A stretch of DNA of 37,953 nt from a virus. Made by a program: the position numbers and the translations under genes. Location: IMG/VR virus record IMGVR_UViG_3300031417_000380. One strand, given 5' to 3'. The notes under the pieces were generated by a model. The model saw only the letters and a program-made list of their open reading frames with translations, was not told the origin of the DNA and searched no databases. Position 1 is the first letter of the stretch. The number at the start of each line of letters is the position of its first letter. Of the stretch, positions 19,329 through 37,953 are shown piece by piece.

Positions 19329-20180
19329 TTACTCGGACTTCGTAACGCCTGTCGGGTCAACAACTCCTGCTGGGAGAGGCTGATCTACCGGGCACCAGTA
19401 GAGCATACGGCCGTAGAAGTCCTTGGCTCGCACCGGACCTCCACAGATCACGCACGGCTGTGTCGCACGCTTGTAAACGTAGGTACGCCGAGCACACGCA
19501 GCTTTAATCACCGGAGGGAGTCCGAGCGGCTTCGGCGCACCGGAGTAAACTGTCTCAATCCCGCCGGAGTGCTCTACTCCGTGGCTCATGAGCTCGTGAG
19601 TGAGTGCCCAAAGCTTCTTCCACTCCTCGGTTGAAAGATCTTTGGCGGGCTTGAACGGGGATAGCCCACGCATGAAGAGCACCTCTGCTCGGTAAACGTT
19701 ACCGATGCCGGCAATCTCGTTCTGATCCATGAGAATCTTGCCCACCGGAGCTTTTAGCTTCGCCATACGCTCGAGGAAAGCAGCAGGAGCCTCGTCAAGC
19801 TTTAGCGGGTCAGGGCCGAGTCGATCGAGTACCGTCTGAACTCCAGCCTTGTCCAGTACCTCACAGCGCGTCGGACCGTTAAGGTCGATAGTTCGGTTCT
19901 TAAAGCGTACTCGCATTCGGACCGCGCCTTTTGGCTCAGGGGCGGGTGTTGGCAGCTGGTGATGCTTTCCGTAGAGTCCGAGGTGGATGTGGATCGTGTA
20001 ATCCGGCTCGAACTCGAGGAATAGGTGCTTGCCGTGGGACCATGCACCACGGAAACGATGACCATCGACGAGAGCGGCTGATTCTGCGAAGCGACCCTGG
20101 GGAGAGCTTACGTGAGCGATCTGTCCGGCGTTACGATTCCACATATTCGCCGCGCGCTTTAGACTGTGGCCTTCTGGCAT
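19329..20180 (-). CDS. nei: Fpg/Nei family DNA glycosylase/AP lyase (endonuclease VIII-like)
   Basis: N-terminal MPEGH, GKHLF, HLGLYG, H2TH LMDQ..IAGIGNVYRAEVLF, Zn finger CVICG..WCP. Confidence 0.93.
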   Translation of the reverse strand: MPEGHSLKRAANMWNRNAGQIAHVSSPQGRFAESAALVDGHRFRGAWSHGKHLFLEFEPDYTIHIHLGLYGKHHQLPTPAPEPKGAVRMRVRFKNRTIDLNGPTRCEVLDKAGVQTVLDRLGPDPLKLDEAPAAFLERMAKLKAPVGKILMDQNEIAGIGNVYRAEVLFMRGLSPFKPAKDLSTEEWKKLWALTHELMSHGVEHSGGIETVYSGAPKPLGLPPVIKAACARRTYVYKRATQPCVICGGPVRAKDFYGRMLYWCPVDQPLPAGVVDPTGVTKSE

Positions 20181-24122: not shown

Positions 24123-24268
24123 AGAGCCGTAGCTAAAAAAAACTCCTCGAAAAAGTTTTCGCTATAGATGACTAAAAATGTAAAGCGGTGATTGGGCTCG
24201 GTACAAAAGCTATGTCTCGAAAGTAGACACCTGGCGGTGCCGGGTAACTTTCCACAGAAAGATTGACC

Positions 24269-25090
24269 ATGAGTCTCTCAGTTACCGAAATAGCAGTATC
24301 CGAGCTTTCCGAAGTAGAGCTTCTCGACGCAGAAGAGCTTACTCGGAGAAGCAAGCACATCGTTCGCATTCCGAAGCGCGGTAAGTCGCCGGAGTCGCGC
24401 TCCGATGTCTACGGCGGGCTCGTTCGCGCCGCGGTTGACCACGTGGTCGGCGCCGGCGGCCGTGAATCCATGGCTAAGGCGTTCCGCGCCGGCTGCACGC
24501 TCTTCGAGAGCTCCTGCTACATCTGCGGCTACCCGGTCTACCGAAGCACCGGCGATCCGTTCGAGGGTCTCCTCTCGCCGCAGGCTGACCATATCCTCCC
24601 GCACTCCCTCGGAGGCGTCGGAGCCGCCGGTCACCTGCTGCCGACTCACCGTGTCTGCAACGACGCCAAGAGCAACGCACTGGTGGAGGACTACCTCTTC
24701 GACCGCCCCGAGGCTCTGCGTCGTATTAACCGCTTCAAAGAGCTTTACGAGGTGACTGAGATGCCGGGCCTCTACGCCGCTGTGACTGAGCGTGTGGCCA
24801 AGGCGTTCGCCGGCCTCTCCGCCGACCTCACCGAGCTGGGTCTCGACTACGACCTTGAGGTCCCTCCGTTCTACACCGCGAAGCCGAAGACTGAAGATGT
24901 GGCTGAGGAGAAGCCGAAGCTCCCCGCCGCCGTCCTCGCGAAGATGGAAGCCAACGCGCAGGCTACTGAGCGCAAGAAGCTCCTGGCGATCCGCAACCAG
25001 GCTGAGGAGCAGGTACGTCGCTGGCTACGCACCTCCGGGCTACCCGAAGCAAAGAGTATCTACACCTCGGCGAACGGAGTTGCAGCGTGA
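24269..25090 (+). CDS. HNH endonuclease
   Basis: CYICG..ADHILPHSLGG..HLLPTHRVCNDAK; ATG 24269 after AGAAAG. Confidence 0.85.
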   Translation: MSLSVTEIAVSELSEVELLDAEELTRRSKHIVRIPKRGKSPESRSDVYGGLVRAAVDHVVGAGGRESMAKAFRAGCTLFESSCYICGYPVYRSTGDPFEGLLSPQADHILPHSLGGVGAAGHLLPTHRVCNDAKSNALVEDYLFDRPEALRRINRFKELYEVTEMPGLYAAVTERVAKAFAGLSADLTELGLDYDLEVPPFYTAKPKTEDVAEEKPKLPAAVLAKMEANAQATERKKLLAIRNQAEEQVRRWLRTSGLPEAKSIYTSANGVAA

Positions 25091-27348
25091 ACACTCTCGT
25101 AACTGTCCCGCGCATGGAAGGCAACGTCCTCCACTCGAACCCGTTCCACTACGGTCGCCACTTTGTCAACTGGGAGAACCAGCGCACCTCTGCGTGGCCG
25201 CGCACCAAGGCCATCGGTCTGGCTCGAAGCTTTGTGAACGCCTCCGAGACTGAGCAGGGGATGATCTTCGACACGAACTTCATCCTTCAGGAGATCGAGG
25301 ACGACACTAACGGCTTCCACCGCTACGTCTTCTTCGACGGCCAGCAGCGACTCACCACCACCACGCTGGTGGCTCTCGCACTTCTTCGTCTATACCGTGA
25401 CTCTCAGGTAGACACGCAGAACTCCGCCGGCACCGCCGGGTTAAGCCAGCTTTCTGCTGACGCTCTTCTTCGACTGCACCCGGCCACCTCGATCACCGGA
25501 GAGCGCACCGCAGGTGAGCCGTTCACCGGCGGCGCCTACAGCTACGTGGATGAGGAGGGCAAGTTCCGCCCCTGGCTATCCATCAGCCGTGGAGTCAACG
25601 AGGATCACTTTGACGAGTACATCGCTAATCTGGTCTTCACCTCACGAGTCACCCTGATCGAGGATGCTGATCGTTCGCTTCGTGAGGAGCTTCGCTCACC
25701 GGAGGCCCGCCTCGCCAACAACTTCCTCGGTATCCTTGATTATCTGAGTAGCTTACGTCTTGACGACGAGCGCTTCGTTGCCATCGTGAACGCTGTGGCT
25801 GACTTCCGTTGCTACTACAACATCTACCGGGATACTGACGAGGCTACTCGCGCGTTCACCAACTCCAACAACGGAGCCCAGATGAGCTTCGCCGGTGTCA
25901 TGCGCGTCATCGTCGCTGGGATCTACAGCGACAAGGAGCTCACCGAGACTCTCAACAAGCTAGACACTAAGACGATCTACGGCTTCCTTCCAAAGTCGGT
26001 CGCTGAGGTTCAGGATAAGAACGGTTCAGATCTTATCTACCGTTTAGCCTTCTCCTCCACCATGCTCGAGCCGATCCACGCCGGTGACGATAACGCTGCG
26101 GACACGAAGCAGTTCAAGTCGGAGATCCCTACCTCTAAAGATGCGATTCGTTTCTTCAACTCGATCGTCGCGCTCGTTGAGGGTATGCGGTCGCTCGAAT
26201 CAACCGATGTGCGCGGCAAGCGTAAGCCACCCAAGGGAAAACGTCAGACTCGCGAACAACTCTTTGCTCAGTTCCTCTACCTAATCGCTACTCAGGGAAA
26301 TGATCGTTCAGCCTGGTACGCAGCGTTCTATCTACTGCGTAAGCTCGAAAAGGTCGGGCTTCAGCAGCTTCGCGAGGTGCTCGATTCTTTCACTCGCCTC
26401 TACATCAACGTTACGCTATTCGGCTCGGTTGACCCGGCTCGCGAGGATGACAAGAGCTTCTACCGACTGGTACGCTCTACCGTGGAGAAGCTCGGCGTGG
26501 AGAACCTGAATCGAAGCACCCTCGACTCGTACTTCGCTGGCCTCGCCGGGCCGTGGCGCCCGAACACTAAGGCAAAGCTTCGTGCTCACCTTGAGCAGGT
26601 AAGCTTTAAGCCGATCGCTACTAGCGTCTTCGGCCAGCTTTACCCGGCCGCCATGGCCTACGCTGATGTCACTCGTGCTATCCGCTCTAAGCGGGCTATC
26701 CCGGAGCTGCTCTACAACTACCAGCGTTCTTCGTTCACGGTGCCGAGCGCGAACTGCCTCGCTCCGGTGATTGCGATTAACGATGAGCACTCTACGCTCA
26801 TTCGCGCTGGAGGGAGCTTGGAGCTTGCCTACCCCGGTTCGTACCTAGTCACTCACTACAAGCTGGATGTGAACCGCGAGGACTCGCAGAAGATCCGTAA
26901 TCTGCTCGATCGCACCATCGGCGGAACCCGAGTCGGCGATAGCGAGACGCTCATCTCTATTGCTGAAAAGCTAGAGAACTTTAATGACGGCTTCACAAGA
27001 GGCCATGTGGCTCCTGAGTTCGTGGCAGCTAACCGCTCGTGGCAGGCGGCTCGTCTTGCGGACGCCTACGGTATCGATACAGCACCGTTTGAGAAGCTAC
27101 AGAGCCGTCTCTCGCAGCGCTTCCCCTCGGCTACGCAGGTTTACATGGTGGCTGGAGACGACTGCTTCTCCTTCGATCTACGCGCCGGCCGGCTTTCGGT
27201 TGCTGACACTGCGCTCCAGCTTGAGGATTGGGGCGCCGCACTCGAGCTTACCGACTTCAAGACTCAGGAAGAGATGCTCGCGGTTACCAGCATCTTTGTC
27301 GGCGAGAACGAGCACGATGAGAAGCTTGCGGAGGTTCTAGCAGGCTAA
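25087..27348 (+). CDS. DUF262 (GmrS/ParB-like) domain protein, type IV restriction-like
   Basis: NQRTSAW, FDGQQRLTT and AFTNSNNG match the QR..W, DGQQR and FxxxN DUF262 motifs; GTGA coupling to upstream HNH. Confidence 0.8.
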   Translation: MNTLVTVPRMEGNVLHSNPFHYGRHFVNWENQRTSAWPRTKAIGLARSFVNASETEQGMIFDTNFILQEIEDDTNGFHRYVFFDGQQRLTTTTLVALALLRLYRDSQVDTQNSAGTAGLSQLSADALLRLHPATSITGERTAGEPFTGGAYSYVDEEGKFRPWLSISRGVNEDHFDEYIANLVFTSRVTLIEDADRSLREELRSPEARLANNFLGILDYLSSLRLDDERFVAIVNAVADFRCYYNIYRDTDEATRAFTNSNNGAQMSFAGVMRVIVAGIYSDKELTETLNKLDTKTIYGFLPKSVAEVQDKNGSDLIYRLAFSSTMLEPIHAGDDNAADTKQFKSEIPTSKDAIRFFNSIVALVEGMRSLESTDVRGKRKPPKGKRQTREQLFAQFLYLIATQGNDRSAWYAAFYLLRKLEKVGLQQLREVLDSFTRLYINVTLFGSVDPAREDDKSFYRLVRSTVEKLGVENLNRSTLDSYFAGLAGPWRPNTKAKLRAHLEQVSFKPIATSVFGQLYPAAMAYADVTRAIRSKRAIPELLYNYQRSSFTVPSANCLAPVIAINDEHSTLIRAGGSLELAYPGSYLVTHYKLDVNREDSQKIRNLLDRTIGGTRVGDSETLISIAEKLENFNDGFTRGHVAPEFVAANRSWQAARLADAYGIDTAPFEKLQSRLSQRFPSATQVYMVAGDDCFSFDLRAGRLSVADTALQLEDWGAALELTDFKTQEEMLAVTSIFVGENEHDEKLAEVLAG

Positions 27349-27424
27349 GTACTTCGGGGAAGCGCCGTTTCGAAGAAAAGTCAGAAACTGCGCTTCTCTG
27401 AAATACGCCCGTTAGGTATAACGT

Positions 27425-28276
27425 ATGACATATACTAAAACCACCTCGTCTTCCTGGGATCGCCGCTACGCTGACAGCTTCCATGACCGTAAATCGGCCG
27501 TCTCTCATGCTGACGTCTTCGACAAAGTGTGCTACCTCTGCGGAGCACCTAACACAGGAGACCCAACTGAGCACATCATTCCCGTTTCGTGCGGAGGGCT
27601 TACGGCGCCTGGTAATCTAGCGCGTGCCTGTGATAGCTGCAACTTTGCGAAGCGCACCGATTCAGCTGAGGAGGCGCTCACTAAGCGTCTTAACTCCGGT
27701 GAACCGACTCTCTTCTCTACCGTCGAAGAGCTGCGTGTCTGGCTCGACGCATACATGGCGCCCTATCGTAAAGCTCACGAGGCTCAGTACCGCTTGTCGC
27801 TGATTCTCATGGACGCAGCTCACCCTCGCCGCGAGGCTGCACTAACTAACTGGCATCAGATTCTACTCGACTACCACTTTGATACTGAGTTCCCAGCGGC
27901 TGAGCTGAGCATTTTAGGCGATCTCGTTACGCAGATGCAGTTTAAGATGAACTGGATCAAGATGCGGAGCCAGCAGCGCGAGCAGTACATAACTTCATCT
28001 CGAGGCACCGCGTTGGATCGCCTGAGTAAGGCTGTAGATCCGCTGAGCAAGGCTGTTTACACTAGGGCTTCTTCTCGTTCAGTACGCTCAGACGCACTCA
28101 GCGTTGCGACTCAGGGGGAGCGTGCAGTCGAGTGGTTCAAGGATCATGAAAAGAAGCTGAACATGCTCGAACTGTTTGAGGCTCGCGTAGCTGAACTTGG
28201 GAACTCACAAGGTGCGATTAGTACTTGGCGCTTTGTAGCCCGTGAAGCCGGTCATAAGCTTCCTCGAAAGCACTGA
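27425..28276 (+). CDS. HNH endonuclease
   Basis: CYLCG..EHIIPVSCGG..GNLARACDSCNFAK. Confidence 0.88.
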   Translation: MTYTKTTSSSWDRRYADSFHDRKSAVSHADVFDKVCYLCGAPNTGDPTEHIIPVSCGGLTAPGNLARACDSCNFAKRTDSAEEALTKRLNSGEPTLFSTVEELRVWLDAYMAPYRKAHEAQYRLSLILMDAAHPRREAALTNWHQILLDYHFDTEFPAAELSILGDLVTQMQFKMNWIKMRSQQREQYITSSRGTALDRLSKAVDPLSKAVYTRASSRSVRSDALSVATQGERAVEWFKDHEKKLNMLELFEARVAELGNSQGAISTWRFVAREAGHKLPRKH

Positions 28277-33681: not shown

Positions 33682-34245
33682 ATGCCTCACATCCACACAG
33701 AAGCCGGGCACCACGATCACACGGTGAGCTTCTTCATCGTTCGTACAGATTTCGATGAGCCAAAGCTCACTTACCACGTCCATCGGAAGACAGGCAACCT
33801 GAGCATGTTCGGCGGTCACGTGGAGCTCGATGAGACTCCGTGGCAAAGCATGCTTCATGAGATCACTGAAGAGTCCGGCTTCGACCACGATCAGCTACAG
33901 ATCCTACAGCCGATTGAGCGTCTTAAGAGTGTCTCCGGCGTGGTGACTCATCCGCAGCCGGTCTACGTTCACACCGGACAATTCCCGATCCAGCCACCTC
34001 ACTATCACACGGACATGATGTACGCGCTGGTGGCTAACGAGGCACCACGTCAGGCGCCGTTAGAGGGTGAGTCCACCGACATCCGATTCTTCACTCTTGA
34101 GGAGCTCGCGCAAGTGGCGGACGAAGAGATCTTCGAAGCGTGGCGTGAGATCGGCGCCTATATTCTCCAAGAGGTGTTCCCTACCTGGGAGCATCTCCCA
34201 CTTTCCACCTTCGATCACACGGGAGCAAATTATGACGCCAGCTGA
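33682..34245 (+). CDS. NUDIX hydrolase
   Basis: Nudix box GGHVELDETPWQSMLHEITEESG (R replaced by H). Confidence 0.9.
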   Translation: MPHIHTEAGHHDHTVSFFIVRTDFDEPKLTYHVHRKTGNLSMFGGHVELDETPWQSMLHEITEESGFDHDQLQILQPIERLKSVSGVVTHPQPVYVHTGQFPIQPPHYHTDMMYALVANEAPRQAPLEGESTDIRFFTLEELAQVADEEIFEAWREIGAYILQEVFPTWEHLPLSTFDHTGANYDAS

Positions 34246-34453
34246 ACTACAGGAGCATGCCGCACGTATCCTTGGGCAGGCTGTAACCGATGTCGAGTAC
34301 TCCAACGTCTACGAGGATGACGAGCTTTCGGAGGCCTCGGAAGCTGACCAGCGTGCCATCCACAATCTCGTGAACTCTGCTCAGATCTTCGTCACCTGGC
34401 CGACTGCTGACACCGAGTACCAGGTAGCCGGGCCGGACGATGATGAAGAGTGA
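34232..34453 (+). CDS. small acidic protein (start revised to ATG 34232)
   Basis: GGGAG SD; overlaps NUDIX stop. Confidence 0.65.
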   Translation: MTPAELQEHAARILGQAVTDVEYSNVYEDDELSEASEADQRAIHNLVNSAQIFVTWPTADTEYQVAGPDDDEE

Positions 34454-34511
34454 CCAGACAGCGATAGACAGTGTGAGAGCCTAGGCTCGACGAACCGATG
34501 GGGAGAACACT

Positions 34512-34787
34512 ATGACCTTCTTAGAAGGACTGGCCGGCGCAGAACAACGCGAACGAGCAGCAGCCGCCGCTGAAGAGCGCGCGTGGGCCAAGGTAATTGC
34601 CTACGCTCGGGAAGAGCTTCCGAACGATGGCCTCCCCATCACACTTGAAACGTATCTCTTTGCTGTAGCACGAGCTGCAGGTGTTGACCTACTCGACGCA
34701 AAACGTGCTCTGTCAGCACTCCGAAGCCGAGGCGAGGCGAGCTACAAGTTCGGTATCGGCGTTACCCGAATCGTAGATAAGTCATGA
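34512..34787 (+). CDS. small protein, possible winged-HTH
   Basis: VARAAGVDLLDAKRALSALRSRGEA followed by a short beta-hairpin-like tail. Confidence 0.5.
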   Translation: MTFLEGLAGAEQRERAAAAAEERAWAKVIAYAREELPNDGLPITLETYLFAVARAAGVDLLDAKRALSALRSRGEASYKFGIGVTRIVDKS

Positions 34788-35047
34788 GTGATCTACCGAG
34801 AAACCCACTCGAGCAAGCACGTGAACTTGCTCAGATCGGCTTCGTGATGTTCGAGGCCCACGCTACAGCGGATGTGGCTATCGGCGAGGCTCTCAACGAA
34901 GCTTTTGCAATGGATGAACAGCTAAAAGCTGTCACCGCGGCGCTTACAGTAGCCATGAGCATTGCAGGAGATCGCGTCGGTCTCTCACCACTTGAGGCTT
35001 CCAGACTTATTCGAGAGAGACTCACCGCGAAAGGGCAGGAGAGCTGA
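34784..35047 (+). CDS. small helical protein, paralog of 35047-35307
   Basis: A.IG.V..E....AL.EA...EQ..A...AL.V....G...G..PLE....IR..L shared. Confidence 0.75.
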   Translation: MSDLPRNPLEQARELAQIGFVMFEAHATADVAIGEALNEAFAMDEQLKAVTAALTVAMSIAGDRVGLSPLEASRLIRERLTAKGQES

Positions 35048-35307
35048 TGGAACACGAATCAGAAGCGATGAAGGCTCGGCGTAAGGAGCTCGAGCGAGCC
35101 ACGATCGGGCTCGTCATTGTCGAGAATCTCTTCAACGGGGACGAGAATCTCGCCGGAGCTCTCGATGAGGCGTACGATAAGGAAGAGCAGATCGAAGCTC
35201 TCAAGACAGCGCTCGTCGTGACGCTGCGCTCTACTGGCCATGTTCTTGGAGTTGAACCGCTAGAGCTTGCTACCGGTATTCGTAAAGGTCTCAACGAATT
35301 GCAGTAA
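35047..35307 (+). CDS. small helical protein, paralog of 34784-35047
   Basis: same pattern; TGATG coupling. Confidence 0.75.
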   Translation: MEHESEAMKARRKELERATIGLVIVENLFNGDENLAGALDEAYDKEEQIEALKTALVVTLRSTGHVLGVEPLELATGIRKGLNELQ

Positions 35308-35319
35308 GCTATTTATGTG

Positions 35320-35348
35320 TTGTCAATGCTTGAGCCATGGTGTAGGTT
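35320..35348 (+). promoter_or_regulatory. SigA-like promoter, leaderless
   Basis: TTGTCA-N17-TAGGTT-N6-ATG(35355). Confidence 0.7.
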
Positions 35349-35354
35349 TGTGCC

Positions 35355-35741
35355 ATGGCTCAAGCTCGTACTCCCCTCACCAAGGATCAGATCGAGGCGT
35401 TCACCGCCGGTGACTGCTGGCGACTTGCCGGAGAACTCATGCGACTCGGAGTCGGTGAGGTGGTGCTCCTTTCCAATGAGAACAGTGACGCGCCGCTCGA
35501 GTTCTTCCCTTGGGAGCACGTGGTGGTTCGCCTTCCTTCCGGCCTCTACCTGGACGCCACCGGCGTTCGCACCATGGCTGAGCTAGAGGGCGACTGGGCG
35601 TGGGATTCGGAGCCGATGACCACGCGTACCGTCACCACCGAAGAAGACTTTAAGCGCGCCACCTGCGACCAGATTCGCGCCCACCGTCACAACGCTCGCT
35701 CCGCCGCACTGAAGCTGCAGAAGCTTGCCCTCGCTGCGTAA
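35355..35741 (+). CDS. small papain/transglutaminase-like fold protein (putative C-H-D triad)
   Basis: FTAGDCWRLA..EHVVV..YLDATG. Confidence 0.55.
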   Translation: MAQARTPLTKDQIEAFTAGDCWRLAGELMRLGVGEVVLLSNENSDAPLEFFPWEHVVVRLPSGLYLDATGVRTMAELEGDWAWDSEPMTTRTVTTEEDFKRATCDQIRAHRHNARSAALKLQKLALAA

Positions 35742-35768
35742 AGCTTGAGCTTGTGGTACTATGTACTC

Positions 35769-35915
35769 AAGGCCGGGCAGCGGCCGGTCTTAGGGCTCAC
35801 TCCTACGTGGTGACCCGCTAAGAGCAAGGTTCTAGAAATCCTGTCCATTTTCTCGATTCACCATCTTCGACAGTGGTGATCAAGACGTAGGCGCGATCAC
35901 AGTACTGGACTCAAG
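35769..35915 (+). ncRNA. structured 5' leader RNA, copy 1
   Basis: begins 6 nt after TACTAT (-10); repeated at 37103-37250 with compensatory changes. Confidence 0.7.
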
Positions 35916-37040
35916 ATGACCAAGAATCGCTTCGACAAGCTAGCTATCCGTAACGAGATGGCTCTCACCGGCGCTCCGTACTCCGTAGCAGCACGCTCGG
36001 CAGAGAACTTCCCGCTCACCTCCTGGCTCTCACTCGACACCGCCATCGGCGGCTTCCGACGAGGCCGCTTCTATGCAGTAGGCGCTCAAACTGGAGGCTG
36101 GAAATCAGCCTTTGCTGCGAATCTCGCTGTTAAGTTCGCTCAGGCAAATCGTAAGACGGCTTACTTCTCGCTCGAGGCTACTCAAAGTGAGGTTGCGCTT
36201 CGACTTCTCGGGGCAGCGACAGATGTGTCACTCGCTGATCTAAAGAACGGTGTGGCTAAAAGCTCTCAAGAGCTTGACCATGCTGTCAAGATGCTCGAGC
36301 GTTCAGTTACTGTCAACGATAGCTCTAGACAGAGTGCTGATAGCATCAGAGAGTACGTTGAGAGTCGACCAGAACTTGAAGCCGTCATCATCGACTACGC
36401 TCAGCTTCTTGATTCACCTACCGAGGATATTGTGGCCGGCGTCTCGAGAGCCGAGCTTCTGGCTCGAGCTTCTCGTACTCTAAAGAGCCTAGCTGTAGAG
36501 CTAAACATCCCGGTGATTCTTCTTGTGCAGATGAATCAGAGCGGGGCCAGAGCGCAGTTCCGTGAGACCGGAGCTATTGAGCAGGACGCTGATTGCATCT
36601 TCGTGCTTGACTCCAAGTCAAAGCCTGGAGTTGTCATTCTTAACTTAGTGAAGAATCGTGACGGCGAGCACAAGTCTTTCGAGCTGCTCATTTCGGGCCG
36701 CGGATCGCTTCGGCTTGAGGACAAACTAAAGATCAAGTCACTTACGGCTAATGACTTCACTATGCCGTGGAATGAGACTCTCACATTCCCGTTCTTCGCT
36801 GATGACCAGGGTGATGGTTACTGGGCTCACGGCTCTATTAATGACGATGAGTTTGCTCGTGGGGTGAATCACTACGACGAACTTTGTAACGCCCAGTGGG
36901 ACTACCCGCTTCAAGCTGCTGGAGTAGTCAAGCACATCGGTGTTGGCGCCTACAGCGTTGACCACTCTGATGAGGATTGGCGAATCTACCCGTGCCCGCC
37001 GAACTTCCCCGGTGCTTTCGTGGTGAAGACTCTGGGATAA
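35916..37040 (+). CDS. DnaB-like (SF4) helicase C-terminal ATPase domain protein with extra C-terminal domain
   Basis: LDTAIGGF..GAQTGGWKS (Walker A), YFSLE, VIIDYAQLL (Walker B), LKSLAVELNIPV..Q, ETGAIEQDAD, KNRDG. Confidence 0.88.
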   Translation: MTKNRFDKLAIRNEMALTGAPYSVAARSAENFPLTSWLSLDTAIGGFRRGRFYAVGAQTGGWKSAFAANLAVKFAQANRKTAYFSLEATQSEVALRLLGAATDVSLADLKNGVAKSSQELDHAVKMLERSVTVNDSSRQSADSIREYVESRPELEAVIIDYAQLLDSPTEDIVAGVSRAELLARASRTLKSLAVELNIPVILLVQMNQSGARAQFRETGAIEQDADCIFVLDSKSKPGVVILNLVKNRDGEHKSFELLISGRGSLRLEDKLKIKSLTANDFTMPWNETLTFPFFADDQGDGYWAHGSINDDEFARGVNHYDELCNAQWDYPLQAAGVVKHIGVGAYSVDHSDEDWRIYPCPPNFPGAFVVKTLG

Positions 37041-37102
37041 GCCTACACGCCCGGCCTTGGGAAAGTAGCACACGTTTTAGCGTAACGTGATACTATGGAC
37101 TC

Positions 37103-37250
37103 AAGGCCGGGCAGCGGCCGGTCTTAGGGCCCTCTCCTACGCGGAGTGTTCGCTAAGAGCAAGGTTCTCGGAATCCTGTCGTAACGAACTCGATTCATCA
37201 TCTTAGTAGACGGTGGTTGAGCGTAGGTCGATCACTCGTTGGGATTCAAG
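37103..37250 (+). ncRNA. structured 5' leader RNA, copy 2
   Basis: 32-nt and 18-nt blocks identical to copy 1; same TACTAT-N6 start. Confidence 0.7.
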
Positions 37251-37953
37251 ATGACGAAGAACCGCGCTGAAAAGCACTCCGCTCGCGCTCGCATGGCCAC
37301 CAACTCGGAGCCGTACTCGGTCGCTGCTCGCGCCGTCGCGCCTCTCTCAAGCTGGAGCTCGCTGGACGACGCTCTCAACGGAGGGTTTAAGCCAGGCCAG
37401 GTCTATCTGGTAACGGCTCCCAGCGGAACCCACAAGTCGAGGCTCGCCACGAATCTGATCGCTAAGTTCGCTCTTGGTAAGCACCGAGTGCTCTCGATGG
37501 CCAGCTCGCTTAACTCTTTTGTCTTCAACACCGCTGTTCTGGAGGCTGCCTCCGGCGAGAACTCGTCAAACTGGCGTCTTGAGACCGAGAAGAGCGACCT
37601 CTTCAAGACCATCTTTATCGAGTTGAAGCCGTACATGAGCCACTTTGCCCAGGCTTACTCGGCAGCTGAAATCGACACCTATCTCACTGAAGAGAAGCAC
37701 GATGTGCTGGTCATTAACAGCTTCGAGGATTCTATCGGCGTCTGGCGGCGCGTATCTGCCCGTAACGACACTGATGCTCGTGCACTCAAAGATGTCGCTA
37801 TGAAGCATAACATCCCGGTAATTGTCTTCGCGACCACGCACTACGAGACTTCTGAGCTCGTAAACCCTGTACTCGCTGAGGTGGCTGACACCTCAATCGA
37901 GCTTTCTGCTCGCGATAGAGATAAAGAGCTTATCGTGACGAAGAACCGTAGCA
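37251..37953 (+). CDS. degenerate DnaB-like ATPase paralog, runs off window end (absent from ORF track)
   Basis: manual translation MTKNRAEKHSARARMATNSEPYSVAAR..LDDALNGGFKPG..APSGTHKS..VLVINSF..LKDVAMKHNIPVIV..ADTSI..VTKNR, no stop before window end. Confidence 0.8.
   Translation, partial: MTKNRAEKHSARARMATNSEPYSVAARAVAPLSSWSSLDDALNGGFKPGQVYLVTAPSGTHKSRLATNLIAKFALGKHRVLSMASSLNSFVFNTAVLEAASGENSSNWRLETEKSDLFKTIFIELKPYMSHFAQAYSAAEIDTYLTEEKHDVLVINSFEDSIGVWRRVSARNDTDARALKDVAMKHNIPVIVFATTHYETSELVNPVLAEVADTSIELSARDRDKELIVTKNRS

What the first reader, a model, noticed from the sequence alone, without database searches (positions are those of the whole stretch)
35757..37250. Duplicated structured leader RNA with a covarying pseudoknot and mutually exclusive stems
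Seen: both DnaB-like genes have TACTAT-N6 then a ~147-nt leader. 5' hairpin AAGGCCGG/CCGGUCUU overlaps an alternative stem UCUUAG/CUAAGA. The latter encloses an inner stem that covaries (CAC/GUG vs CUC/GAG). Its loop CCUACGU (35802-08) pairs with ACGUAGG (35885-91) in copy 1, while CCUACGC (37136-42) pairs with GCGUAGG (37221-27) in copy 2, a compensatory change in a long-range pseudoknot ending ~24 nt before the ATG. Parts of the leader are better conserved than the proteins. I do not recognise it as a known riboswitch. Inference: an undescribed cis-regulatory RNA switch.
Basis: partly seen in the sequence, partly recalled or inferred. Interest (0 to 1): 0.85.

Follow-up and report, generated by a model that had tools for sequence, protein, structure and literature searches.

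The report
Double-pseudoknot leader RNA with peptide partner
The two repeats are copies of a real, uncatalogued, doubly knotted RNA at the start of a messenger RNA.

Summary
Confirmed and larger than reported. Both leaders (35769-35918, 37103-37253) belong to an RNA family with no Rfam match. I found it in over 130 loci, on giant contigs from metagenomes (this window's DNA occurs in plant and soil samples) and in actinobacterial genomes.

A second, missed pseudoknot joins the 5' hairpin loop to 35841-45. The claimed mutually exclusive 5' stems fail: 55% paired, equal to shuffles. A weaker candidate switch lies at the 3' end (start codon buried versus open).

Nearly every copy has its own -10 box and precedes a 30-residue basic two-helix peptide fused to unrelated proteins, here degenerate DnaB-like ATPases. 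77 of 78 peptide loci carry the RNA, and 40 of 43 RNA-first hits precede the peptide or a diverged form.

The three exceptions precede a spare clpC1 gene, which mostly lies beside a peptide gene. Two further clpC1 leaders keep only the 5' core, and free peptides occur in phage-like operons. This favours a peptide-binding operator that can act in trans (55%); binding is untested. The scan noted such a module before on other DNA.

The parts
35754..35762 (+). Extended -10 promoter box (TGn-TACTAT) of copy 1; predicted start about 35769
   Evidence: Sequence; TAnnnT 4-12 nt before P1 in 36/37 representatives versus 3.9% at random positions. No -35 box: the sigma-70 scan finds no site. Start not mapped.
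35771..35785 (+). Copy 1 P1 hairpin (5 bp) with loop 35776-80, the 5' strand of pseudoknot PK1
   Evidence: 87.6% paired, 4 of 5 pairs compensatory
35787..35825 (+). Copy 1 P2-P3 arm; its loop 35802-08 is the 5' strand of kissing pseudoknot PK2
Evidence: P2 base 90.5% and P3 90.2% paired.
35828..35845 (+). Copy 1 P4 hairpin (invariant G-U wobble), followed directly by the 3' strand of PK1 (35841-45)
   Evidence: P4 91% paired, G-U in 29/29; PK1 86.9% paired, 5 of 5 pairs compensatory; native versus mixed partners z -11
35858..35918 (+). Copy 1 3' domain: anti-start strand 35862-67 pairing with 35913-18 (P5); hairpin P6 35876-81/35895-900 whose loop holds the PK2 3' strand 35885-91; competing hairpin 35858-64/35873-79
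   Evidence: PK2 99% paired, 6 of 7 pairs compensatory; P6 75% paired, strong out of sample. P5 and the competing hairpin: modest signals only. Folds of -16.1 versus -10.3 kcal/mol.
35916..36002 (+). N-terminal 29-residue basic two-helix peptide of gene 1
   Evidence: Family of at least 350 clusters at 50% identity; predicted helices 3-18 and 22-31; no Pfam, NCBIfam or PDB match
35916..37040 (+). Gene 1, 374 aa: peptide, DnaB_C-like ATPase domain without the DnaB N-terminal domain, extra C-terminal domain
   Evidence: Pfam DnaB_C E 1e-35; Walker A reads GGWKS where DnaB has GK(T/S); residues 276-350 match phrog_2495
37049..37111 (+). Long hairpin of the read-through transcript that spans the copy 2 promoter and captures the 5' strand of copy 2 P1
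   Evidence: -36.6 kcal/mol; kept with different inner stems in L001 and L004; absent after single-copy genes and after copy 2 genes
37088..37096 (+). Extended -10 promoter box of copy 2
   Evidence: Sequence
37105..37254 (+). Copy 2 RNA: P1 37105-19, PK1 37110-14/37176-80, P2-P3 37121-60, P4 37163-75, PK2 37136-42/37221-27, P6 37212-20/37228-36, P5 37198-204/37248-54
   Evidence: 93 bits with model R2 (the near-identical L004 copy was in its seed). One metatranscriptome contig covers 37111-37276 only (weak).
37251..37953 (+). Gene 2 (runs off the window; 255 aa in relatives): peptide plus a strongly degenerate DnaB-like domain
   Evidence: Pfam DnaB_C E 0.0017, below the cut-off; motifs decayed; relatives L001 and L004

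Best explanation
A portable control unit: own promoter, a compact RNA with two pseudoknots, and a 30-residue basic peptide at the start of the protein. SHOWN by covariation: a 5' core (P1, P2, P4, pseudoknot PK1) and a loop-loop kiss (PK2) to hairpin P6 near the ribosome-binding site; a near one-to-one link between RNA and peptide whatever protein follows; core-only leaders before a peptide-less clpC1 copy; free peptides without RNA. INFERRED: the peptide, on the finished protein, binds the folded core. On its own message this holds the 3' domain in the fold that buries the Shine-Dalgarno site and AUG, so the protein limits its own synthesis. A competing hairpin that forms first during transcription would leave the start open for a first round of translation. 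The same protein could control neighbouring genes that carry the RNA but no peptide. In this window the unit would keep two degenerate DnaB-like ATPases of a giant element at a low, fixed level.
For: Structure: 88.9% of 961 cells paired, 28 of 34 pairs compensatory, 0/500 shuffles as high, slid controls 32-43%. Peptide to RNA: 77 of 78 peptide-selected genome loci match R2, ending at the start codon. A model built only from window-type copies already hit 20 of the 76 genome loci searched at that position and nowhere else in them. RNA to peptide: an RNA-only pattern scan and R1 gave copies followed by the peptide, including two very divergent pairs. In genome samples 33 of 43 hits of 30 bits or more have it by profile and 7 more in diverged, extended or frameshifted form (three unpublished genomes left out). 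Attached proteins are unrelated, which fits no single pathway. The three exceptions precede a second clpC1, not the housekeeping copy. A peptide gene is adjacent in five such cassettes, in tandem, divergent or convergent order. Two clpC1 leaders keep only the core, with an 8-bp anti-Shine-Dalgarno stem that excludes PK1. Stand-alone 49-50 aa peptides sit in phage-like operons without the RNA. The peptide is basic and two-helix with conserved K8, R12, R14 and Y22.
Against: No binding, structure-probing or reporter data exist here. P5 covaries weakly (mean z -0.79 in 37 representatives, -0.29 in 28 new copies). The competing hairpin is modest too (-0.89 and -0.58). The predicted burial of the AUG in 33 of 37 has no strong control in GC-rich DNA. 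The fold is more elaborate than simple feedback needs. The clpC1 cassettes are related to each other and come from one family. One of them (G266) has no peptide gene within about 11 kb upstream, and its contig ends inside clpC1. The direction of control (off or on) is a guess.
Confidence: 0.55

Rival explanations
1. The leader ends up as a stable small RNA that stays bound to the peptide and acts on the protein (holding a harmful enzyme inactive, or anchoring it), more like an RNA antitoxin or scaffold than a translation operator.
For: Compact double-pseudoknot fold with invariant junction bases. The only RNA-run contig covers the leader alone (166 nt, 37111-37276). The attached proteins on the giant elements are decayed helicase mimics that could poison the host's DnaB (inference). 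Several copies per element.
Against: The RNA always ends at the start codon and is never repeated in tandem or found alone. The RNA-run evidence is one contig at depth 3 and cannot show ends or strand. The attached proteins are mostly not recognisable toxins. Core-only clpC1 leaders have an anti-Shine-Dalgarno stem.
Confidence: 0.17
2. A riboswitch-like sensor of a small molecule, ion or host protein; the peptide has a separate job (for example a ClpC1 degradation tag) and travels with the RNA only as part of one cassette.
For: Core plus variable 3' platform, invariant G-U and CAA junction. A K-turn-like motif in 14 of 37 representatives could bind a host protein. The link to a spare clpC1 would fit a protein-turnover role for the peptide.
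Against: The attached proteins share no pathway. RNA and peptide stay together even in their most diverged forms. The K-turn motif is absent from both window copies. A core-versus-Shine-Dalgarno switch is not general (mean z -0.13).
Confidence: 0.18
3. The peptide acts only in cis as a nascent chain (ribosome stalling or co-translational capture of its own leader).
For: The peptide is N-terminal and directly follows the RNA in almost all cases.
Against: The RNA lies upstream of the peptide codons. Leaders before clpC1 have no peptide behind them. Free peptide genes lack the RNA.
Confidence: 0.07
4. One reading: the 8-bp 5' hairpin and the UCUUAG/CUAAGA stem alternate.
For: Both pairings can be drawn in the window copies and appear among near-optimal folds of copy 2.
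Against: No covariation and 55% pairing, equal to shuffles; broken in 21 of 21 more distant copies; it would also break the well-supported P1 and PK1.
Confidence: 0.03

Closest known systems
Autogenous translational operators of ribosomal proteins, e.g. S15 on the rpsO pseudoknot, L20, S4 (own knowledge)
   Same: Structured, pseudoknotted 5' leader next to the start codon of a gene whose product is basic and plausibly binds RNA; predicted feedback on translation.
   Different: There the whole protein binds rRNA and the leader mimics that site. Here a 30-residue tag is fused to unrelated proteins, the unit has its own promoter, occurs sporadically and in several copies, and no Rfam leader matches.
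Short peptide-RNA pairs: lambda N with boxB, HIV Rev with RRE, MS2 coat protein with its operator (own knowledge)
   Same: A short arginine-rich helical segment recognises a defined RNA fold and can act in trans.
   Different: Those RNA sites are single hairpins or internal loops serving one viral process; this is a 150-nt two-pseudoknot RNA travelling with its tag across many genes.
Type III toxin-antitoxin systems (ToxIN, AbiQ, CptIN, TenpIN; own knowledge)
   Same: Pseudoknotted RNA encoded just upstream of a protein gene under one promoter.
   Different: No tandem repeats, no terminator between RNA and gene, no endoribonuclease; the RNA runs into the start codon.
Type I toxin mRNAs with metastable hairpins (AapA3/IsoA3, PMC6733600; hok/sok from own knowledge)
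   Same: Successive folds during transcription decide access to the Shine-Dalgarno site.
   Different: In AapA3 the early hairpins hide the site, whereas here the early hairpin would open it. No antisense RNA was looked for or seen, and 5'-3' end pairing is not a family feature.
raiA motif RNA (PMC5737381)
   Same: Large orphan structured RNA that occurs in Actinobacteria.
   Different: No Rfam match. raiA RNAs often lie more than 600 bp from the next gene and go with RaiA and binding-protein domains, whereas this RNA abuts the start codon of peptide-led genes.

Membership tests
Any Rfam 15 family (riboswitches, leaders, orphan motifs) | Score at or above the family's gathering threshold | tested here: not met
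   None in the window, none in 20 loci of other subtypes; best loose hit E 6.1 to a nematode snoRNA
Ribosomal-protein autogenous leaders | Downstream gene encodes a ribosomal or rRNA-binding protein | tested here: not met
   DnaB_C-like, BtrH_N/DUF4872, HNH, ClpC1 and mostly unknown proteins; one Atlas cluster with a KH_2 domain is the only RNA-binding case
Ribosomal-protein autogenous leaders | Structured leader adjoining or covering the translation start | tested here: met
   PK2 ends 18-32 nt before the start in 37/37; start predicted paired in 33/37; covariation of P5 is weak
Ribosomal-protein autogenous leaders | Gene product binds the leader and changes its own translation | not testable with these tools
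   Needs binding and reporter assays
Metabolite riboswitch | Downstream genes share a pathway or transport function | tested here: not met
   Attached proteins unrelated
Metabolite riboswitch | Conserved core plus mutually exclusive expression platform | tested here: inconclusive
   Core conserved; 5' switch refuted; 3' alternative modest; core-versus-Shine-Dalgarno stem only in two related clpC1 leaders
Metabolite riboswitch | Direct, specific ligand binding | not testable with these tools
   Needs in-line probing
Type III toxin-antitoxin | Tandem pseudoknot repeats followed by a terminator before the gene | tested here: not met
   One unit per gene, no terminator between RNA and ATG
Type III toxin-antitoxin | Downstream endoribonuclease toxin | tested here: not met
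   No such Pfam family among 110 peptide-led proteins
hok/sok-type closed-loop toxin mRNA | Conserved pairing of the mRNA 3' end with its 5' end | tested here: not met
   Complement present only where copy 2 follows; absent in L005, L006, L009 and after copy 2 genes
Replicative DnaB helicase (genes 1 and 2) | N-terminal DnaB domain and intact Walker A GK(T/S) | tested here: not met
   No PF00772; Walker A altered in both copies and most relatives

The most novel reading that the evidence does not exclude
A natural, portable RNA-plus-peptide recognition system: a two-pseudoknot RNA and a 30-residue tag that can be put in front of any gene to give it feedback control, that builds small regulons in trans (for example on a spare ClpC1, possibly sensing protease capacity), and that phages mimic with free peptides. 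No such modular protein-sensing switch family was found in the libraries searched.
Probability: 0.3. Interest if true: 0.9.

Novelty: new variant of a known kind. Interest (0 to 1): 0.76.

Why it matters
An elaborate RNA fold that is widespread in actinobacteria and their giant mobile elements is missing from Rfam, and its partner peptide is missing from Pfam and NCBIfam. If the peptide binds the RNA, this is a compact natural peptide-RNA pair that evolution has moved onto many unrelated genes. It would be a new form of dose control for mobile and possibly harmful genes, and a candidate tool for tagging or feedback circuits in Streptomyces and relatives. A 30-residue peptide and a 150-nt RNA can be tested in days, and the core-only clpC1 leader points to the smallest likely binding site.

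Tried and rejected
1. Whole genome of the window: not held; the large contigs of relatives could not be searched either.
2. No DNA match in the phage collection, and only one chance-level 33-nt hit in the plasmid collection; no exact pattern match in IMG/VR. One IMG/VR contig with the window-type RNA was reached through the peptide (L200).
3. Resemblances to HDV-like and pistol ribozymes and to a tRNA T-loop, recalled from memory, were dropped. P4 is a plain 5-bp hairpin with compensatory changes.
5. Closed-loop mRNA: refuted as a family feature.
6. A general switch between the core and the Shine-Dalgarno site: mean z -0.13 over 37 copies.
7. The K-turn is not in the window copies.
8. L091 looked like an RNA without peptide, but it is an inverted junction with a duplicated stretch next to a peptide gene.
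9. The similarity of the ClpC1 N-terminus to the peptide has no consistent register and no profile score.
10. Peptide homodimer prediction gave no verdict. Fold search of the peptide found nothing significant.
11. Paper searches for the peptide motif and for the RNA description found nothing relevant. The library lacks most subscription papers and the supplements of PMC5737381.
12. The metatranscriptome run covers only 166 nt at depth 3, which is no proof of expression.

Full report
Observation. The window holds exactly two copies of the element. Each starts about six bases after an extended -10 box and ends at the ATG of a DnaB-like gene (35916, 37251). The RNA core is 87% identical between the copies, while the proteins align only over 75 residues at 53%. 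Rfam 15 has no match, at gathering score or loosely.

Context. The gene 1 protein has close relatives in syntenic loci on metagenome contigs of up to 698 kb. The window's DNA occurs in phyllosphere, plant, soil and leaf-litter metagenomes. All of these loci carry the leader. An RNA-only pattern scan of metagenomes gave about 14 more distant copies, several on contigs of 177-791 kb and often two or three per locus.

Structure. On a MAFFT alignment of 29 diverse copies, made without any structure, a 34-pair model is 88.9% paired and 28 pairs show changes on both sides. No shuffle reaches it and slid controls give 32-43%. The 3' strand of PK2 lies in the loop of hairpin P6, so it is a loop-loop kiss. 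An anchored analysis of 37 non-redundant copies agrees (native versus mixed partners: PK2 z 12.9, PK1 z -11, P6 z -11.7; the PK2 strands were located by complementarity there, so one search is the fairer test). P6 and PK2 also hold in copies not used before.

The proposed switch. It pairs 3-6 of 8 in 21 others and equals shuffles on the alignment. The true P1 does not overlap P2, so these stems are compatible.

A candidate switch at the 3' end. In the full leader an upstream strand pairs over the Shine-Dalgarno site and AUG and encloses P6 (-16.1 and -19.7 kcal/mol in the two copies). Before P6 is complete, the same strand pairs with the 5' side of P6 and leaves the start free (-10.3 and -8.3). 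This competing hairpin beats composition shuffles modestly (mean z -0.89 +/- 0.20 in 37 copies, -0.58 +/- 0.21 in 28 new ones; negative controls +0.2 to +0.4). The start-covering helix is no stronger by the same test (-0.79 and -0.29). Both are candidates, not findings.

The partner. Both genes begin with a basic peptide of consensus MTxNxAxKxAIRxRMAxTGEPYSVAAR. A profile finds 350 clusters at 50% identity, predicted as two helices, with no Pfam, NCBIfam or PDB relative. It is fused to DnaB_C-like, BtrH_N/DUF4872, HNH, WD40, KH_2, AHSA1 and mostly unknown domains.

The link in both directions. Of 78 actinobacterial genome loci chosen by the peptide alone, 77 carry the RNA, ending at the start codon. 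A model trained only on window-type copies had already found 20 of the 76 such loci it was run on. Model R2 holds no peptide codons beyond the start. In samples of 150 genomes each from the phylum and two families it gave 43 hits of 30 bits or more. Of these, 33 precede the peptide by profile, 7 precede diverged, extended or frameshifted forms (five judged by eye), and 3 precede clpC1. Genomes G125, G006 and G053 are unpublished. They are left out of these counts (with them, 36 of 46) and no conclusion rests on them. A TAnnnT box lies 4-12 nt before P1 in 36 of 37 representatives versus 3.9% at random positions, so the unit brings its own promoter. It is sporadic, not housekeeping.

The exceptions. 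In the family of Phytohabitans maris (Micromonosporaceae by my knowledge) the RNA precedes a second clpC1 gene and not the housekeeping copy. This clpC1 is one half of a two-gene cassette with a peptide gene. The order is convergent in G227 (both genes have the RNA) and G157, divergent in G190 (only clpC1 clearly has it), and tandem in G218 and G259. In the tandem cases the clpC1 leader is cut down to P1, a short P2, P4 and PK1. An 8-bp stem there covers the Shine-Dalgarno site and excludes PK1 (p 0.005 and 0.012; the two are close relatives). So the 5' core is the part that persists, and the 3' domain is replaceable. Both stand-alone 49-50 aa peptide genes that I looked up lie translationally coupled inside phage-like operons with no RNA in front. 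These natural rearrangements fit a peptide that recognises the core in trans better than a nascent chain acting in cis. I did not see them in the summaries of earlier scan notes.

Mechanism. Shown: the fold, the promoter-like box, the link to the peptide, the exceptions. Inferred: peptide binding, feedback on translation, and its direction. The genes in the window lack the DnaB N-terminal domain and have altered Walker A motifs, as do most relatives. They are more likely helicase mimics or adaptors than replicative helicases, and tight dose control would suit them (inference).

Comparison. It works, if the inference holds, like ribosomal-protein leaders or the lambda N-boxB pair, but it fails their defining features and those of riboswitches and type I and III toxin-antitoxin systems as far as these could be tested. 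Early-forming hairpins that govern ribosome access are known from AapA3 (PMC6733600), with opposite sign. No paper describing this RNA or peptide turned up, within the limits of the library. Earlier notes of this scan (e1-5217021, e1-5355411, e1-5228237, e1-5040922, e1-5102815) describe what appears to be the same module on other DNA. I had reached the RNA-plus-peptide reading before seeing them and could not compare their sequences. Their claim of five or six phyla was not tested; my named genomes are all Actinomycetota.

Verdict. A real and widespread new RNA family with a near-obligate peptide partner. Interest 0.76.

Noticed in passing
window 37049-37111: A long hairpin in the read-through transcript covers the copy 2 promoter and takes the 5' strand of its P1, so P1 and PK1 of copy 2 cannot form in read-through RNA; it may also end the gene 1 message. 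Conserved with different inner stems in L001 and L004 and absent where no copy 2 follows, which argues against a closed-loop mRNA.
   Followed up: yes
L295:2525-6377, L296:1626-4351, L299, L300, L301 (family of Phytohabitans): Two-gene cassette of a peptide-led protein and a spare clpC1 gene in varying order, with full or core-only RNA leaders. Speculation from own knowledge: a response to ClpC1-targeting antibiotics such as cyclomarin, made by members of this family; compare ClpC2 (PMC10030653).
   Followed up: partly
L320:1964-2113 and L321:1611-1763: Stand-alone 49-50 aa peptide genes in phage-like operons (one between recT and a RuvC-like gene), without the RNA; possible mimics or trans regulators. 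The Atlas also lists a 37-aa cluster of 91 members with this fold.
   Followed up: partly
L119-L198 (P2 arm): The common chromosomal subtype has a textbook K-turn-like motif (3-nt bulge, tandem G-A pairs): 68 of 104 copies, 14 of 37 representatives; the window copies have a short bulge there instead.
   Followed up: partly
window 37111-37276: The only contig from a leaf-litter metatranscriptome that lies on 34400-37953 covers just the copy 2 leader (166 nt, depth 3.3): a weak hint of a stable RNA.
   Followed up: partly
L030:5038-5185 (minus strand): An intact leader whose gene starts with ATT instead of ATG; its close relative L069 has ATG.
   Followed up: no
L069:5409-5540 and L030:12060-12200: Very divergent RNA copies with both pseudoknots re-encoded, followed by equally divergent peptides; useful for testing whether RNA and peptide specificities co-evolve.
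   Followed up: partly
L006:9600-9840 and L009: Four to five spaced copies of a TTAAA(C/G)(T/C)GAAGT-like motif upstream of the leader's promoter, absent from the window; possible protein-binding sites.
   Followed up: no
window 36741-37037: Gene 1 has an extra C-terminal domain of about 100 residues that matches phrog_2495 (unknown function) and is lacking in gene 2 and in the L006/L009 relatives.
   Followed up: no
window 19329-20180, 24263-28276, 33682-34245: Fpg/Nei-like glycosylase, a GmrSD_N (DUF262) protein beside an HNH gene, and a NUDIX hydrolase; most other genes tested have no Pfam match.
   Followed up: no
L091:7173-7377: The RNA lies inverted against its peptide gene with a duplicated stretch at the contig end: assembly artefact or real inversion.
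   Followed up: partly
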